The notes under the pieces were generated by a model. It did no database searches, was not told the origin of the DNA, and saw only the letters and a list, made by a program, of their open reading frames with translations. Below, piece by piece: positions 40,043-42,759 of a stretch of DNA of 64,000 bases. The stretch spans positions 145,872-209,871 of the forward strand of contig CAYQUS010000002.1 of assembly GCA_964421015.1 (NCBI GenBank). Reading direction: 5' to 3'. Within the stretch, counting starts at the first letter, position 1, and the number at the start of each line of letters is the position of its first letter. Both the position numbers and the translations under genes were made by a program. Source of the DNA: an uncultured Planctomycetia bacterium (lineage in GTDB: Bacteria > Omnitrophota > Gorgyraeia > Tantalellales > Tantalellaceae).

Positions 40043-40071
40043 TTGACAAACGCCCGGGAAAAGGTATAATC
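40043..40071 (+). promoter_or_regulatory. consensus sigma70 promoter TTGACA-16-TATAAT for the ilv leader
   Basis: -35 at 40043-48, -10 at 40065-70. Confidence 0.6.
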
Positions 40072-40098
40072 ACAAAATAACTTGAAGAAATAAAAACA

Positions 40099-40197
40099 AT
40101 GGAAAAACAGAGATCTTCTTATATTTCCGGAACTGAAAACGGGACGACCGCGGTAGCGGTCTTAGCGGATGTAGTCTGCCCGTTTTTTGCCGGATAG
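40099..40197 (+). CDS. putative ilv leader peptide 1 (32 aa, Thr/Ala/Val-rich)
   Basis: MEKQRSSYISGTENGTTAVAVLADVVCPFFAG. Followed by an intrinsic terminator. Confidence 0.4.
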   Translation: MEKQRSSYISGTENGTTAVAVLADVVCPFFAG

Positions 40198-40224
40198 AGG
40201 ATAGCTGTAAAATAGATTTTAAAA

Positions 40225-40260
40225 GGCCCCTTCCGGAAAAACCGGGAGGGGCTTTTTTGT
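40225..40260 (+). terminator. attenuator terminator 1
   Basis: GGCCCCTTCCGG-AAAAA-CCGGGAGGGGC followed by TTTTTTG. Confidence 0.6.
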
Positions 40261-40287
40261 TTCAGGCGGCTTGGGGGCAAAAGTAAT

Positions 40288-40359
40288 ATGAAAAAAGAGC
40301 AGATGCAAAATACGGTAAAGGTAACGGTAGTAGAAGGGGGTGTAAAACCGCCTCCGTAG
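40288..40359 (+). CDS. putative ilv leader peptide 2 (23 aa, Val/Thr-rich)
   Basis: MKKEQMQNTVKVTVVEGGVKPPP. GGGGG SD upstream; followed by a second intrinsic terminator. Confidence 0.4.
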   Translation: MKKEQMQNTVKVTVVEGGVKPPP

Positions 40360-40385
40360 GGGTATGTCCACTCAGGATATTTTTG

Positions 40386-40422
40386 GGCCCCTGCCGGAGA
40401 CGGATCTGGCAGGGGCTTTTTT
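40386..40422 (+). terminator. attenuator terminator 2
   Basis: GGGCCCCTGCCGG...CTGGCAGGGGC followed by TTTTTTG. Immediately upstream of the ilvB RBS. Confidence 0.6.
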
Positions 40423-40446
40423 GTTTGAATAAATTAAGGAGGAAAC

Positions 40447-42120
40447 ATGAAATATTCAGGAGCTGAAATAACAATAAAATTGCTGGAAGAAGAGGGGATA
40501 AGTATCATCCCGGGGATCCCGGGCGGGGCGAATCTTCCCCTTTACAGCGCGCTGGCTAAAAGCGGGATAAGGCACATACTCGCGCGGCACGAACAGGGCG
40601 CGGGTTTTATAGCCCAGGGAATGGCAAGGTCTACGGGAAGACCCGCGGTTTGTTTCGCGACAAGCGGCCCCGGAGCGACCAACCTTCTTACGGCCATAGC
40701 CGACGCCAAGATGGATTCGGTGCCGCTAATCGCCATAACAGGCCAGGTTTCGTCGGGCCTTATCGGGACAGACGCTTTTCAGGAGGTTGATACGTACGGG
40801 ATGAGCATTCCCGTCACAAAACATAATTTTCTGATACGTTCGGCCGGTGAGCTGGAAAGGGTTATTCCCGAGGCGTTCAGGATAGCCTCGGAAGGAAGGC
40901 CCGGGCCTGTACTGATAGACATGCCTAAAGACGTGCAGCTCGAAAAAGTCGAGGCGGGGGACCTTAAAAAAAGGGCCGTTCCCGAAGAAAAACAGTCCGG
41001 TATGGATACCGAGGCTATTAAACGGGCAGCGCGGATGATAAACGGGTCAGCAAAACCGGTCATTTACGCCGGCGGAGGCATAATAGCTTCGGGAGCTGGA
41101 GACGTTCTAAGACGGTTATCCCGCAGGAATTCCATACCCGTGGCCTCGACATTAATGGGGCTTGGATGTATCAGTTCAAGCGAGGAAATGTTCCTGGGCA
41201 TGTTCGGTATGCACGGTTCAGCGCACGCGAACAGCCTGATGCACGAAGCCGATCTTGTCCTGGTTTTCGGCGCGAGGTTCGACGACCGCGCTACCGGGAA
41301 TCCCGGACTTTTCTGCCCCGGCGCGAGAATAATACATATCGACATAGACGGGGCGGAAATAAACAAGATAAAAAAAGCCGACATAGCTTTCCGGGGCGAT
41401 ATCCGGTTGGCCATAGAAGCTCTTCTTCCTCTCATCGAGGACAACGATAGAAGGGATTGGAAAAAAACCGTCCTGGAAAGGAAAAGGAAGTTATCTTGCG
41501 CCGGGAGGGGAGGAAAGATAGAGGAGCTGATAAAAAAAATAGCTCTTTTCGCCGGAGAAGACGCCATAATAACCACTGACGTGGGACAGCATCAGATGTG
41601 GGTGGCCCAGTACTACCCGTTTTCCGGGCCCAGGACTTTTCTTACTTCCGGAGGCCTGGGAACAATGGGGTTCGGGTTACCCGCGGCGATCGGGGCGGGT
41701 CTTGCAAACCCGGGCAAAAAGATAATCTGTTTTACCGGGGACGGGTCGTTTCTTATGAACATGCAGGAAATGTCCCTTCTTTCGGAACTGGGGCTGGACA
41801 TAAAAATAGTTCTGCTTAACAACAGGCGTCTTGGGATGGTGCGCCAGCAGCAGGAATATTTTTACGGAGGCGAATATATAGCCTCAAGCCTTAACTGTCG
41901 TACGGATTTCGCGAGGATAGCCGAAGCTTTCGGCATAGAGGGAAAGGAGCTTAAAAACTCCGCGGACCGCCTCGGCGAAATGGAGAAGGTCATTAAAGAA
42001 ACAGGTCCCGCGCTGATAAATATACCGGTGGATCCTTGGGAAAATGTTACCCCGACGGTTATTCCGGGCAGGTCCAACAATGAAATGATAGGAGGAGAAG
42101 GCCATGAAAGAGGGTTCTAA
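40447..42120 (+). CDS. ilvB: acetolactate synthase large subunit
   Basis: TPP-enzyme motifs (GDGSFLMN..N) and overall AHAS architecture. Confidence 0.9.
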   Translation: MKYSGAEITIKLLEEEGISIIPGIPGGANLPLYSALAKSGIRHILARHEQGAGFIAQGMARSTGRPAVCFATSGPGATNLLTAIADAKMDSVPLIAITGQVSSGLIGTDAFQEVDTYGMSIPVTKHNFLIRSAGELERVIPEAFRIASEGRPGPVLIDMPKDVQLEKVEAGDLKKRAVPEEKQSGMDTEAIKRAARMINGSAKPVIYAGGGIIASGAGDVLRRLSRRNSIPVASTLMGLGCISSSEEMFLGMFGMHGSAHANSLMHEADLVLVFGARFDDRATGNPGLFCPGARIIHIDIDGAEINKIKKADIAFRGDIRLAIEALLPLIEDNDRRDWKKTVLERKRKLSCAGRGGKIEELIKKIALFAGEDAIITTDVGQHQMWVAQYYPFSGPRTFLTSGGLGTMGFGLPAAIGAGLANPGKKIICFTGDGSFLMNMQEMSLLSELGLDIKIVLLNNRRLGMVRQQQEYFYGGEYIASSLNCRTDFARIAEAFGIEGKELKNSADRLGEMEKVIKETGPALINIPVDPWENVTPTVIPGRSNNEMIGGEGHERGF

Positions 42121-42403
42121 GACCATAATCGAGATAATAGTGAACAATCATCCGGGCGTGATGTCCCATATAACGGGGCTTTTCGCGAGGAGGGCTTACA
42201 ATCTTGAGGGGATACTGTGCGGCGAAATAGAGGACGGGTCCCGGAGCAGGATGTATCTTCTGGTGGATGAGGACGAGAGGCTGGAACAGATAATAAAACA
42301 GATAGAAAAACTTTATGACGTTATTACAGTTAATGCAAGGGGTGACAGGGACCATACCATATTCAAAAAACTGGATAAGGCTATGGAGATTTTTGGGGGA
42401 TAG
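42104..42403 (+). CDS. ilvN: acetolactate synthase small (ACT-domain) subunit, short form
   Basis: ACT-domain sequence IIEIIVNNHPGVMSHITGLFARRAYNLEGI. 99 aa. Overlaps the end of ilvB. Confidence 0.75.
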   Translation: MKEGSKTIIEIIVNNHPGVMSHITGLFARRAYNLEGILCGEIEDGSRSRMYLLVDEDERLEQIIKQIEKLYDVITVNARGDRDHTIFKKLDKAMEIFGG

Positions 42404-42488
42404 ATTTGGCTAACCGTAAACTGAAGTACTCAAGGTAGAACTTTTTCAAAGTCCTACCTTGAGGCCAAATCTATGGCGTGCCAGAGAG
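42395..42488. repeat. 94-bp direct repeat copy 1 (copy 2 at 42602-42695), containing a long hairpin and the 3'-terminal 15 nt of tRNA-Arg
   Basis: GGGGGATAGATTTGGCTAACCGTAAACTGAAGTACTCAAGGTAGAACTTTTTCAAAGTCCTACCTTGAGGCCAAATCTATGGCGTGCCAGAGAG occurs twice, 207 bp apart. Confidence 0.85.
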
Positions 42489-42680
42489 ATTGTTTCGGGC
42501 TATGATCCTCCTCTTCGGCGGATCATTTGTGGCGGTGTTGTTGGTGGCCGGCATCACCGATCCACCCTTGATTTACTCGCTTTGCTCGTAAATCAAACCA
42601 GGGGGGATAGATTTGGCTAACCGTAAACTGAAGTACTCAAGGTAGAACTTTTTCAAAGTCCTACCTTGAGGCCAAATCTA

Positions 42681-42759
42681 TGGCGTGCCAGAGAGGATTC
42701 GAACCTCCAACCAACGGCTTCGTAGGCCGCTACTCTATCCAGTTGAGCTACTGGCACGC
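42681..42759 (-). tRNA. tRNA-Arg (anticodon ACG)
   Basis: The reverse complement folds into a cloverleaf: acceptor GCGTGCC, anticodon loop CTACGAA, T-arm GGTTCGAATCC, CCA encoded. Confidence 0.8.

What the first reader, a model, noticed from the sequence alone, without database searches (positions are those of the whole stretch)
40043..40446. Two tandem leader-peptide attenuators in series upstream of ilvBN
Downstream of a consensus TTGACA-16-TATAAT promoter there are two consecutive short ORFs, and each is followed by a strong GC-rich hairpin plus a T run. The first is 32 aa with a TTAVAVLADVV core. The second is 23 aa with a TVKVTVVEGGV core. The second terminator ends 24 nt before the ilvB start codon. 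Val-, Thr- and Ala-rich leader peptides coupled to terminators are the established logic of ilv attenuation. Two complete leader/terminator units in series is uncommon. It would give multiplicative, or amino-acid-specific two-step, control of acetolactate synthase.
Basis: partly seen in the sequence, partly recalled or inferred. Interest (0 to 1): 0.6.

Follow-up and report, generated by a model that had tools for sequence, protein, structure and literature searches.

The report
Two valine attenuators before ilvBN
The acetolactate synthase operon (ilvBN) of this uncultured Omnitrophota bacterium sits behind two complete valine-sensing leader-peptide/terminator switches in a row, and relatives keep the same layout, so it probably gives a squared on/off response instead of the single switch known from E. 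coli.

Summary
There is a 12/12 consensus promoter at 40043-40070. A 32-aa Val-rich ORF is followed by a strong terminator (T1, 40221-40258). A 23-aa Val-rich ORF is followed by a second terminator (T2, 40385-40422). Then come the ribosome-binding site and ilvB (40447), followed by a short ilvN.

The layout is not a quirk of one genome:
- Every member found of the IlvB clade at 67-71% identity has the same homologous two-unit leader. This clade is mostly Ca. Scalindua MAGs and spans five diverged lineages.
- Omnitrophota MAGs at about 60% IlvB identity have position-for-position related units.
- One Spirochaetota MAG and one unassigned contig also carry two units.

Both terminators show compensatory base changes. 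GTN (valine) triplets are strongly in frame in both ORFs. In most sequences the best partner of each terminator's 5' arm overlaps the leader's stop codon, as in a classical attenuator. The antiterminators themselves rest on conserved complementarity only, not on covariation.

Both leaders are rich mainly in Val (Val plus Leu in distant relatives). The evidence therefore favours two same-signal checkpoints in series, not amino-acid-specific steps.

No Rfam or Pfam leader family matches, and I found no report of tandem ilv leader attenuators. I rate it a new variant of a known mechanism. It has not been tested experimentally.

The parts
40043..40070 (+). Sigma-70-type promoter, TTGACA (40043-40048), 16-nt spacer, TATAAT (40065-40070)
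   Evidence: 12/12 consensus match. TTGACA is invariant and the -10 hexamer nearly invariant at the same place in all 11 aligned relatives. No other promoter-like site lies between it and ilvB.
40099..40197 (+). Leader ORF 1 (32 aa). Val codons at 40153, 40159, 40171 and 40174; Thr and Ala codons lie between them. Stop codon UAG at 40195-40197.
   Evidence: The ORF is kept at 32-35 codons with an in-frame Val run in all relatives. GTN triplets by frame: 69 in frame versus 7 and 10 out of frame. In the 99%-identical strain variant L081, two substitutions both create Val codons, giving TTAVAVVVDVV.
40186..40201 (+). Candidate antiterminator-1 5' strand (UUUGCCGGAUAGAGGA), overlapping the leader-1 stop codon
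   Evidence: It is the second-best partner of the T1 5' arm in the window (-11.0 kcal/mol). The homologous CACCGGAUAAAGGGUA is the best partner in 6 of 10 sequences. 91.7% of cells are paired, against 24-71% in slid registers, but there is no covariation. This part is inferred.
40221..40258 (+). Terminator 1: 5' arm 40221-40236, loop 40237-40241, 3' arm 40242-40257, T-run 40253-40258
   Evidence: It is conserved in all relatives. 97.3% of cells are paired, 2 pairs changed on both sides, and the covariation score was reached by only 6 of 500 shuffles.
40264..40279 (+). Window-specific alternative partner of the T2 5' arm (AGGCGGCUUGGGGGCA). It contains the G-run that may serve as the ribosome-binding site of leader 2.
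   Evidence: Duplex of -19.9 kcal/mol with the T2 5' arm, slightly better than the conserved stop-codon segment at -18.4. It appears in masked folds. It is not conserved as a strong partner in most relatives. Its role is unknown.
40288..40359 (+). Leader ORF 2 (23 aa). Five Val codons, all GUA (40315, 40321, 40327, 40330, 40342). It ends Pro-Pro-Pro-UAG (stop at 40357-40359).
   Evidence: GUA is the least used Val codon in 35 long ORFs of the window (20%). The ORF is kept at 22-25 codons in relatives, always ending PP-stop. GTN triplets by frame: 55 in frame versus 16 and 5.
40335..40353 (+). Conserved hairpin inside leader 2 (codons E-G-G-V-K-P-P), directly 5' of the antiterminator strand
   Evidence: Predicted by RNAalifold with UA/CG/UG, GU/AU/GC and UG/UA/CG variation. 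It is helix 1: 94.4% paired, 2 pairs changed on both sides. Its function (pause site or ribosome-opened element) is inferred.
40349..40364 (+). Antiterminator-2 5' strand (CGCCUCCGUAGGGGUA), overlapping the leader-2 stop codon. The core GUAGGGGU is at 40356-40363.
   Evidence: CCTCCGTAGGGG is invariant in all 11 sequences. It is the best partner of the T2 5' arm in 8 of 10 sequences and a near tie in the window. 92.9% of cells are paired, against 35-59% when slid, and covariation is not significant at 62/500. In the Scalindua-type relatives the pairing is lost or much reduced when a ribosome is placed on the stop codon. In the window the T2 arm then stays paired to 40264-40279.
40385..40422 (+). 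Terminator 2: stem 40385-40418, T-run 40417-40422
   Evidence: 14 pairs, 9 G-C. Compensatory changes in relatives, for example G:C to A:U and C:G to U:A in L166.
40436..40449 (+). ilvB ribosome-binding site AAGGAGG (40436-40442) and start codon (40447-40449)
   Evidence: AAGGAG is invariant in relatives.
40447..42120 (+). ilvB, acetolactate synthase large subunit (557 aa)
   Evidence: TIGR00118 at 653 bits, above its cut-off; best model NF006016. 52% identical to E. coli IlvB of AHAS I.
42104..42403 (+). ilvN, short ACT-domain regulatory subunit (99 aa), overlapping the end of ilvB
   Evidence: PF22629; best model NF006036, the 102-residue small-subunit model. 57% identical to E. coli IlvN.

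Best explanation
This is a two-stage, ribosome-mediated transcription attenuator controlling an AHAS I-type ilvBN operon. AHAS is acetohydroxy-acid (acetolactate) synthase.

A strong, probably constitutive promoter starts a roughly 370-nt leader transcript that holds two autonomous units. Each unit has a short ORF rich in valine codons, an intrinsic terminator 25-30 nt downstream, and an antiterminator strand that overlaps the ORF's own stop codon and can pair with the terminator's 5' arm.

When Val-tRNA is plentiful, the ribosome runs to the stop codon. There it sits on the antiterminator strand, so the terminator hairpin forms and RNA polymerase stops. In leader 2 release may be slowed by the Pro-Pro-stop ending. 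When Val-tRNA is scarce, the ribosome stalls on the Val codons upstream. The stop-codon segment stays free and pairs with the terminator's 5' arm as it emerges, and polymerase reads through.

A transcript must pass both checkpoints (T1 near 40258, T2 near 40422) to reach ilvB. Read-through is therefore roughly the product of the two probabilities. This lowers the basal leak and squares the induction ratio for one signal.

Shown: the elements themselves, their conservation, the covariation in the terminators and in the hairpin inside leader 2, and the in-frame Val codons. Inferred: the antiterminator pairings, the role of ribosome position, the multiplicative outcome, and any role for Pro-Pro-stop.
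For: Anatomy.

Conservation of promoter, both ORFs, both terminators and the ribosome-binding site:
- In 5 diverged lineages with IlvB 68-84% identical to one another and leader DNA 53-84% identical.
- In Omnitrophota L174/L091 and L177 at about 60% IlvB identity. The unit-1 profile hits their first unit (E 9e-13 and 3e-11). The unit-2 profile hits the second unit of L177 over nearly its full length (E 4e-11).
- Two units are also present in L175, L095 and L008.

Coding signal: GTN triplets in frame 69:7:10 and 55:16:5, with synonymous variation. The strain variant gained two Val codons.

Terminators: 95-97% of cells paired, with compensatory changes beyond nearly all shuffles.

Antiterminators:
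- The invariant block CCTCCGTAGGGG spans the leader-2 stop codon.
- The best partner of the terminator 5' arm overlaps the stop codon in 8/10 sequences (unit 2) and 6/10 (unit 1). The other two-unit loci show a similar pattern.
- In the Scalindua-type relatives, masked folding shows the unit-2 pairing present with no ribosome or a Val-stalled ribosome, and lost or much reduced with a ribosome on the stop codon.

Downstream genes are AHAS I-like. In E. coli their homologues are controlled by a Val/Leu leader peptide, ivbL (annotated; mechanism from established knowledge).

No room or signal for a second promoter lies between T1 and leader 2.
Against: - There is no experimental evidence of translation of either ORF or of termination at either site.
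- The antiterminator helices show no significant covariation (62/500 for unit 2, none for unit 1). They rest on conserved complementarity only.
- In the window, unit 1 holds three CCGG-centred palindromic segments (about 40125-40134, 40188-40197, and T1). Any two of them can pair. Masked MFE folds do not give a clean stalled-equals-read-through, stop-equals-termination picture. The top-scoring partner of the T1 arm lies in the Val-codon region.
- In the window, the T2 arm also has a non-conserved upstream partner of equal strength at 40264-40279.
- The ribosome-binding sites of the window's two leader ORFs are weak or distant: GAAGAAA about 12 nt upstream, and GGGGG 11 nt upstream.
- In L087 T1 carries a mismatch, and in L167 the unit-1 antiterminator is weak.
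- The multiplicative behaviour is a deduction, not a measurement.
Confidence: 0.75

Rival explanations
1. Only the ilvB-proximal unit (leader 2 plus T2) is a working attenuator. Unit 1 would be a decaying duplicate or an independent small transcript (a small RNA or small protein with its own terminator) that happens to share the promoter.
For: - Unit 2 has the stronger and better conserved antiterminator and an invariant block.
- The unit-1 antiterminator is weak (-7 to -12 kcal/mol) and shows no covariation.
- The in-silico logic of unit 1 in the window is ambiguous.
- T1 has a mismatch in L087.
- Single units are the commoner state in other lineages: 43 loci with one unit against 12 with two.
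Against: - Unit 1 is conserved as an ORF with in-frame Val codons and a strong terminator across IlvB divergence down to about 60% identity. That is not expected for a relic.
- T1 is as strong as T2 (-28.0 against -27.8 kcal/mol in the window). It lies between the only promoter and ilvB, so it must be passed whatever else unit 1 does.
- The strain variant gained Val codons in leader 1.
- Two units recur in several lineages.
Confidence: 0.1
2. The two units sense different amino acids, for example Thr/Ala/Val in leader 1 and Val in leader 2. The operon would then integrate two signals, as in the Salmonella mgtCBR leader.
For: - In the window, leader 1 has 3 Thr, 4 Ala, 4 Val and 1 Leu in its core, while leader 2 has 5 Val and 2 Thr.
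- A TT or xT pair precedes the Val run of leader 1 in many relatives.
- In some distant relatives the first unit is more Leu-rich than the second (L091, L008).
Against: - Ala codons are not conserved. In relatives leader 1 is the more Val-rich of the two, for example VTTVVEVVVVESV with 8 Val.
- The L081 variant replaces Leu and Ala with Val.
- There is no consistent division of amino acids between the units across lineages.
- Thr or Ala limitation has no obvious link to acetolactate synthase (established pathway knowledge).
Confidence: 0.1
3. The structured leader RNA is a riboswitch, a T-box or a protein-binding element rather than a ribosome-sensed leader, and the short ORFs are incidental.
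For: - Unit 1 of the window folds into a compact multi-stem structure with z = -6.4.
- The same gene is controlled by T-box leaders in Syntrophomonadaceae and Anaerovirgula, so RNA-sensor control of ilvB exists.
Against: - No Rfam family reaches threshold. The weak hits are driven by the terminator hairpins.
- The inner stems of unit 1 are not conserved between the window and the Scalindua group.
- The ORFs, their lengths and the in-frame Val codons are conserved.
Confidence: 0.03

Closest known systems
E. coli ilvBN attenuator (leader peptide IvbL, 32 aa, MTTSMLNAKLLPTAPSAAVVVVRVVVVVGNAP)
   Same: - The same operon type. IlvB is 52% and IlvN 57% identical, and the regulatory subunit is short.
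- A Val-rich leader ORF of the same size is followed by a G+C-rich intrinsic terminator shortly before ilvB.
- The leader ends ...Pro-UAG-GG, with the stop codon just upstream of the terminator, much like the window's leader 2.
- The ribosome-stalling logic is the same (established knowledge).
   Different: - E. coli has one leader and one terminator; here there are two complete units in series.
- No sequence homology can be shown beyond the terminator hairpin, and the Pfam scan returned no family for either leader peptide.
- E. coli ivbL carries Val and Leu codons; the window's leaders are essentially Val only.
- E. coli ilvBN is also under cAMP-CRP control (from my own knowledge). Here the promoter is a perfect consensus.
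Tandem attenuators of the Salmonella mgtCBR leader (short ORFs mgtM and mgtP; Lee & Groisman 2012, PMC3641672)
   Same: Two short translated ORFs in one leader RNA. Each governs formation of alternative stem-loops and so controls transcription into the coding region. Their effects combine.
   Different: - The mgtCBR units answer different signals, ATP and proline-charged tRNA. [quoted passage not shown]
- Here both units appear to read the same signal (Val).
- Each unit here has its own canonical intrinsic terminator.
- The operon here is an amino-acid biosynthetic one.
Tandem T-box leaders and tandem riboswitches of the same ligand
   Same: Two complete sensor-plus-terminator units of the same specificity lie in series ahead of one operon. 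This is generally interpreted as giving a steeper, more switch-like response with lower leak (from my own knowledge; tandem riboswitches are surveyed in PMC12452182, listed).
   Different: Those sensors are RNA aptamers or tRNA-binding RNAs. Here the sensor is a translating ribosome on a leader ORF. No T-box or riboswitch model matches.
E. coli trp operon attenuator (trpL), the textbook three-hairpin model
   Same: Leader ORF with regulatory codons, competition between terminator and antiterminator, and a stop codon placed so that a terminating ribosome blocks the antiterminator.
   Different: - In the Scalindua-type unit 1, the protector strand lies 5' of the start codon (CGGUGAAAAA pairing with UUUUCACCG) rather than inside the ORF.
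- Unit 2 appears to lack a protector. Its coding-region hairpin lies next to the antiterminator strand rather than overlapping it, so without translation it is predicted to read through.
- There are two units rather than one.

Membership tests
Ribosome-mediated (leader-peptide) transcription attenuators of amino-acid operons | A short ORF with start codon and ribosome-binding site lies in the 5' leader of the operon | tested here: met
   ORFs at 40099-40197 and 40288-40359. The ATG columns are invariant, and the ORFs are kept at 32-35 and 22-25 codons in all relatives. Ribosome-binding sites are weak in the window and clear in relatives (GGUGA, AAGGAG). Translation itself was not shown.
Ribosome-mediated (leader-peptide) transcription attenuators of amino-acid operons | A run of codons for the amino acid made by the pathway | tested here: met
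   4 and 5 Val codons in the window, and 4-8 in relatives. Only 6 of 190 short ORFs in the window are as Val-rich. GTN triplets are strongly in frame.
Ribosome-mediated (leader-peptide) transcription attenuators of amino-acid operons | An intrinsic terminator lies between the leader ORF and the first structural gene | tested here: met
   T1 and T2 are each G+C-rich stems of 12-16 bp followed by six T. Covariation supports both.
Ribosome-mediated (leader-peptide) transcription attenuators of amino-acid operons | A mutually exclusive antiterminator whose formation depends on where the ribosome stands | tested here: inconclusive
   Conserved complementarity exists between the stop-codon segment and the terminator 5' arm: 92-93% paired, and the best partner in 8/10 and 6/10 sequences. 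Covariation is not significant. Unit 1 of the window is ambiguous in masked folds.
Ribosome-mediated (leader-peptide) transcription attenuators of amino-acid operons | Premature termination relieved by shortage of the charged tRNA | not testable with these tools
   This needs transcript 3'-end mapping or reporter assays under valine limitation.
E. coli-type IvbL / ilvBN leader (by homology) | Sequence homology of the leader peptide or leader RNA | tested here: not met
   The Pfam scan returned no family for either of the window's leader peptides. nhmmer profiles of either unit match the E. coli region only over the terminator hairpin. No Rfam leader family matches.
E. coli-type IvbL / ilvBN leader (by homology) | Controls an AHAS I-type ilvB plus a short ilvN | tested here: met
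   IlvB is 52% and IlvN 57% identical to E. coli AHAS I. The best NCBIfam models are NF006016 and NF006036, just under their equivalog cut-offs, while TIGR00118 and TIGR00119 are above theirs.
Tandem attenuators of the mgtCBR type | Two leader ORFs in one leader RNA, each part of its own attenuator | tested here: met
   Each ORF has its own terminator and candidate antiterminator.
Tandem attenuators of the mgtCBR type | The two units respond to different signals | tested here: not met
   Both leaders are Val-dominated in the window and in relatives. This rests on codon content only; the response was not measured.
T-box leaders | Match to the T-box covariance model (specifier loop, T-box sequence) | tested here: not met
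   No hit in the window at gathering threshold or at E up to 10. The model does find T-boxes upstream of ilvB in L003, L005 and L009.

The most novel reading that the evidence does not exclude
The two-unit leader would be an old, conserved regulatory cascade in Omnitrophota and Ca. Scalindua. It would be the first natural case of two same-signal leader-peptide attenuators in series on an amino-acid biosynthetic operon.

In this reading the two units are not redundant. Unit 1 carries a protector helix, so it terminates when nothing is translated. Unit 2 has none, so it terminates only when a ribosome actually reaches its Pro-Pro-stop. Together with a consensus constitutive promoter they would form a protein-free circuit with a squared dynamic range. 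That circuit could tell valine starvation apart from a general failure of translation.
Probability: 0.25. Interest if true: 0.7.

Novelty: new variant of a known kind. Interest (0 to 1): 0.55.

Why it matters
Leader-peptide attenuation is a textbook mechanism, and it has been described as one unit per operon. The one well-studied tandem case, mgtCBR, combines two different signals, and its authors called it singular.

A conserved natural design with two same-signal units in series would be the ribosome-sensed counterpart of tandem riboswitches and tandem T-boxes. It offers a simple way to test whether serial attenuators give multiplicative, sharper control. The promoter is a perfect sigma-70 consensus and the terminators are canonical, so the 420-bp element could be moved into E. 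coli as it stands.

The finding also extends classical attenuation to uncultured phyla, Omnitrophota and the anammox Planctomycetota. It suggests that these organisms regulate a key branched-chain amino-acid enzyme without protein regulators.

For annotation, it identifies a family of four small features that gene callers currently miss: two leader ORFs and two terminators.

Tried and rejected
- **Rfam.** The scan of the whole window at gathering thresholds found only four tRNAs. The leader at E up to 10 gave only weak hits driven by the terminators (trpB motif 33 bits against a 59-bit threshold, Thr_leader 18 against 55). I rejected all of them.
- **Pfam and NCBIfam on the leader peptides.** No credible hit. 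Only two sub-threshold chance matches (E about 0.2) to one Scalindua leader.
- **Second promoter.** I looked for one between T1 and leader 2. The scan found none, and the roughly 30-nt gap leaves no room. A poor TTGCCG-15-TAAAAT inside leader 1 is not conserved and would only feed T1.
- **Minus-strand ORFs across the region** (53, 50 and 70 aa). Nothing supports them.
- **Horizontal transfer of the cassette.** I considered transfer from Scalindua because IlvB is 71% identical to Scalindua and about 60% to other Omnitrophota. No compositional anomaly was seen. Other Omnitrophota also carry related two-unit leaders. The question is left open.
- **Homology to E. coli ivbL by nhmmer.** Only the terminator aligned.
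- **MAFFT alignment of whole units for pair counting.** It misaligned the window and L167 in the T2 arm. I replaced it with motif-anchored, loop-less concatenations A4 and A5. These are edited sequences, used only for counting pairs.
- **Thermodynamic folds with a ribosome mask.** Clear for unit 2 of the Scalindua group, but noisy for the window's unit 1 and unit 2. I do not rely on them for the window.
- **Literature.** Searches for tandem, double or two attenuators or leader peptides upstream of ilv genes found nothing relevant apart from mgtCBR and erm-type translational attenuators. The library does not include most subscription journals, so an earlier description cannot be excluded.
Full report
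**1. What is in the sequence**

The window comes from a Candidatus Omnitrophota metagenome-assembled genome (MAG). The IlvB protein is 100% identical to one from GCA_035399965.1.

- A 12/12 consensus promoter, TTGACA-16-TATAAT, at 40043-40070.
- A 32-codon ORF at 40099-40197.
- A hairpin with arms 40221-40236 and 40242-40257, followed by six T. This is T1.
- A 23-codon ORF at 40288-40359.
- A hairpin at 40385-40418, followed by TTTTGTTT. This is T2.
- AAGGAGG, then the ilvB ATG at 40447, 24 nt after the T-run of T2.
- A 99-codon ilvN that overlaps the end of ilvB.

The consensus scan missed T1 only because its flanking A-tract pairs with part of the T-run. RNAfold predicts a 16-bp stem for it, and the two terminator duplexes are equally strong at -28.0 and -27.8 kcal/mol.

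The leader folds much better than shuffled sequence, with z = -6.4 for unit 1 and -7.2 for the whole leader.

Val-rich short ORFs are rare. Only 6 of 190 short ATG ORFs in the window have at least 4 Val in 11 residues, and two of those are these neighbours.

GUA is the least used Val codon in the window's long ORFs (20%). Leader 2 uses it for all five of its Val codons.

**2. Known families do not match**

No Rfam family reaches threshold in the window. The leader gave only sub-threshold hits that align to the terminator hairpins. The window's two leader peptides match nothing in Pfam or NCBIfam.

The operon itself is AHAS I-like (acetohydroxy-acid synthase I):
- The best NCBIfam models are NF006016 and NF006036, the latter being the 102-residue small-subunit model.
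- IlvB is 52% and IlvN 57% identical to E. coli IlvB and IlvN.

E. coli ilvBN is preceded by a single annotated leader peptide gene, ivbL (32 aa), and one terminator.

**3. Comparative evidence**

This is the main result.

*Same species.* Contigs from other samples are almost identical. One 99% variant (L081) carries three changes in leader 1. Two of them turn Leu and Ala codons into Val codons, giving TTAVAVVVDVV.

*The closest IlvB clade.* These proteins are 67-71% identical to the window's IlvB. Most come from Ca. Scalindua or Brocadiales MAGs, and one from a MAG labelled Patescibacteria. Every member I could fetch has the same series:
- TTGACA-N16-TATAAT.
- A 32-35-codon Val-rich ORF, for example MERMRLYNAANENVTTVVEVVVVESVWRFFTG.
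- A terminator.
- A 22-25-codon Val-rich ORF that always ends Pro-Pro-stop, for example MDLINLHNVVVFVVEGSVLLPP.
- A second terminator, then AAGGAG, ilvB and a short ilvN.

These sequences represent five diverged lineages, with IlvB 68-84% identical between them. Their leader DNA is only 53-59% identical to the window's.

*More distant relatives.*
- Omnitrophota MAGs at about 60% IlvB identity (L091=L174, L177, L175) also have two leader/terminator units.
- Profile searches pair unit 1 with their first unit (E 9e-13 and 3e-11).
- They pair unit 2 with their second unit (E 4e-11 over nearly the full profile in L177).
- The two-unit leader is therefore old, not a recent duplication in one genome.
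- Two units also occur in L095 (unassigned) and in a Spirochaetota MAG, L008.

*Census.* I scanned 153 ilvB loci that had enough upstream DNA. An automatic scan found no unit in 98, one unit in 43 and two units in 12. L087 and L095 add two more by eye.

*Other control modes for the same gene.*
- Single Val/Leu leaders occur in Spirochaetia, Leptospira, Bacteroidales and a gammaproteobacterium.
- The unit-1 profile hits some of these single leaders: the gammaproteobacterium L016 and the Leptospirales L011.
- Syntrophomonadaceae and Anaerovirgula use a T-box instead.

**4. Are the ORFs read as protein?**

Over ten sequences (nine relatives plus the window), GTN triplets fall in the ORF frame 69 times against 7 and 10 for leader 1. 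For leader 2 the counts are 55 against 16 and 5. The third base varies.

Near the end of leader 1 the reading frame shifts in L167 and L170 while the nucleotides stay the same (…RFFTG* becomes …RFSPDVR*). So the 3' part of that ORF is conserved as RNA, and the Val run is conserved as codons.

**5. RNA structures**

I used motif-anchored alignments with the loops removed (A4 and A5).

| Structure | Cells paired | Covariation evidence |
|---|---|---|
| T2 plus the hairpin inside leader 2 | 94.9% | 5 pairs changed on both sides; score reached by 1 of 500 shuffles |
| T1 | 97.3% | score reached by 6 of 500 shuffles |
| Antiterminator 2 | 92.9% (35-59% in slid registers) | not significant, 62 of 500 |
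| Antiterminator 1 | 91.7% | none |

RNAalifold independently finds the hairpin inside leader 2.

For the antiterminators, the segment most complementary to each terminator's 5' arm overlaps the leader's stop codon:
- Unit 2: CCUCCGUAGGGGU is invariant in all 11 sequences. It is the best partner in 8 of 10 sequences, at -12 to -19 kcal/mol.
- Unit 1: (C)ACCGGAUAAAGGGUA is the best partner in 6 of 10, at about -12 kcal/mol.

The antiterminators are therefore plausible and well placed, but not proven.

Folding with a 28-nt ribosome footprint masked gives a clear result for unit 2 of the Scalindua-type sequences. The antiterminator is present with no ribosome or with a ribosome stalled on Val codons. 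It is lost or much reduced with a ribosome on the stop codon.

In unit 1 of the Scalindua group, a 5' segment just upstream of the AUG (CGGUGAAAAA) pairs with UUUUCACCG at the end of the ORF. That is a protector-type helix, and it would also hide the ribosome-binding site.

The window is less tidy in two ways:
- Unit 1 has three CCGG-centred palindromes that can pair in several combinations.
- The T2 arm has an extra upstream partner of equal strength at 40264-40279.

**6. Mechanism**

The best-supported model is two classical ribosome-mediated attenuators in series behind a strong promoter.
- With ample Val-tRNA, the ribosome reaches the stop codon and covers the antiterminator strand. The terminator then forms.
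- With scarce Val-tRNA, the ribosome stalls upstream. The antiterminator forms first, and polymerase reads on.
- Both T1 and T2 must be passed, so read-through multiplies.

Both leaders are Val-dominated. Distant relatives have Val plus Leu, with no consistent split between the units. The window's Ala and Thr codons are not conserved. I therefore favour same-signal multiplicative control over amino-acid-specific steps.

The invariant Pro-Pro-stop of leader 2 might slow peptide release and hold the ribosome on the antiterminator strand. The same nucleotides are also constrained by pairing, so this stays a conjecture.

**7. Comparison with what is known, and novelty**

The element works like the E. 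coli ivbL-ilvBN attenuator, but homology to it cannot be shown.

The only tandem leader-ORF attenuator I found in the literature is Salmonella mgtCBR. Its two units read different signals, and its authors call it a singular example.

Tandem same-ligand riboswitches and tandem T-boxes are the closest functional analogues.

Searches for tandem ilv leader attenuators returned nothing. The library does not include most subscription journals.

My verdict is a new variant of a known kind. It is real, conserved, mechanistically ordinary in its parts and unusual in its arrangement.

**8. Limits**

All evidence is computational. The sequences are related, so counts across them are not independent. The antiterminator pairings and the multiplicative behaviour are inferences. 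A taxonomic label on a MAG can be wrong.

Noticed in passing
window 42395-42488 and 42602-42695: A perfect 94-nt direct repeat lies just downstream of ilvN. The second copy includes the last 15 nt of the tRNA-Arg(ACG) gene (42681-42757, minus strand) and a 35-nt hairpin. The first copy carries the same 15 nt without the rest of the tRNA. It looks like an att-site-type duplication at a tRNA 3' end enclosing only 113 nt, or an assembly artefact.
   Followed up: partly
window 40447-42403 compared with L001, L002, L087-L090, L166-L172: The window's IlvB is closer to Ca. Scalindua (Planctomycetota) proteins, at 68-71%, than to those of other Omnitrophota, at about 58-60%. The whole promoter-leader-ilvBN cassette is shared, while the flanking genes differ between genomes. 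This may reflect horizontal transfer of the cassette, or mis-binning. No GC anomaly was seen around it.
   Followed up: partly
L008 2560-2925; L095 2097-2465; L175 1151-1470; L177 857-1175; L091/L174: Other ilvBN loci also carry two Val/Leu leader ORFs, each with its own terminator. They come from a Spirochaetota MAG, three Omnitrophota MAGs and one unassigned contig. In L095 both units resemble each other and both profiles, which suggests a tandem duplication.
   Followed up: partly
L003 2694-2945, L005 2707-2960, L009 2649-2897: In Syntrophomonadaceae and Anaerovirgula, the orthologous AHAS I-type ilvB is preceded by a T-box leader instead of a leader peptide. This is a clear case of the sensor being exchanged in front of the same gene.
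   Followed up: no
leader ORFs in L010, L011, L019, L021, L104, L176, L091, L177 and unit 1 of the Scalindua group: Many ilvB leader peptides from different phyla end in ...R-F-(S/T/M)-(P/L/G). The underlying RNA motif is GGUUUUCACCG, which can pair with CGGUGAA just upstream of the leader start codon. This points to a widespread, undescribed ilvB-leader RNA family.
   Followed up: partly
window 40351-40359 and all homologous leader-2 ORFs: Leader 2 always ends Pro-Pro-stop (CCU CCG UAG, invariant). The E. coli ivbL leader also ends Pro-UAG-GG. Slow peptide release after proline could be part of the mechanism.
   Followed up: no
L171 129-1559 (minus strand): In one Scalindua MAG a 476-aa ketol-acid reductoisomerase gene (ilvC-like) lies upstream of the ilvBN leader on the opposite strand. 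In the window that position is occupied by a 315-aa predicted membrane protein, a DAHP synthase and a class IV aminotransferase-fold protein.
   Followed up: no
L013 5606-5817: A cobalamin riboswitch (107 bits) lies downstream of ilvBN in a Bacteroidales MAG. It is unrelated to the finding.
   Followed up: no
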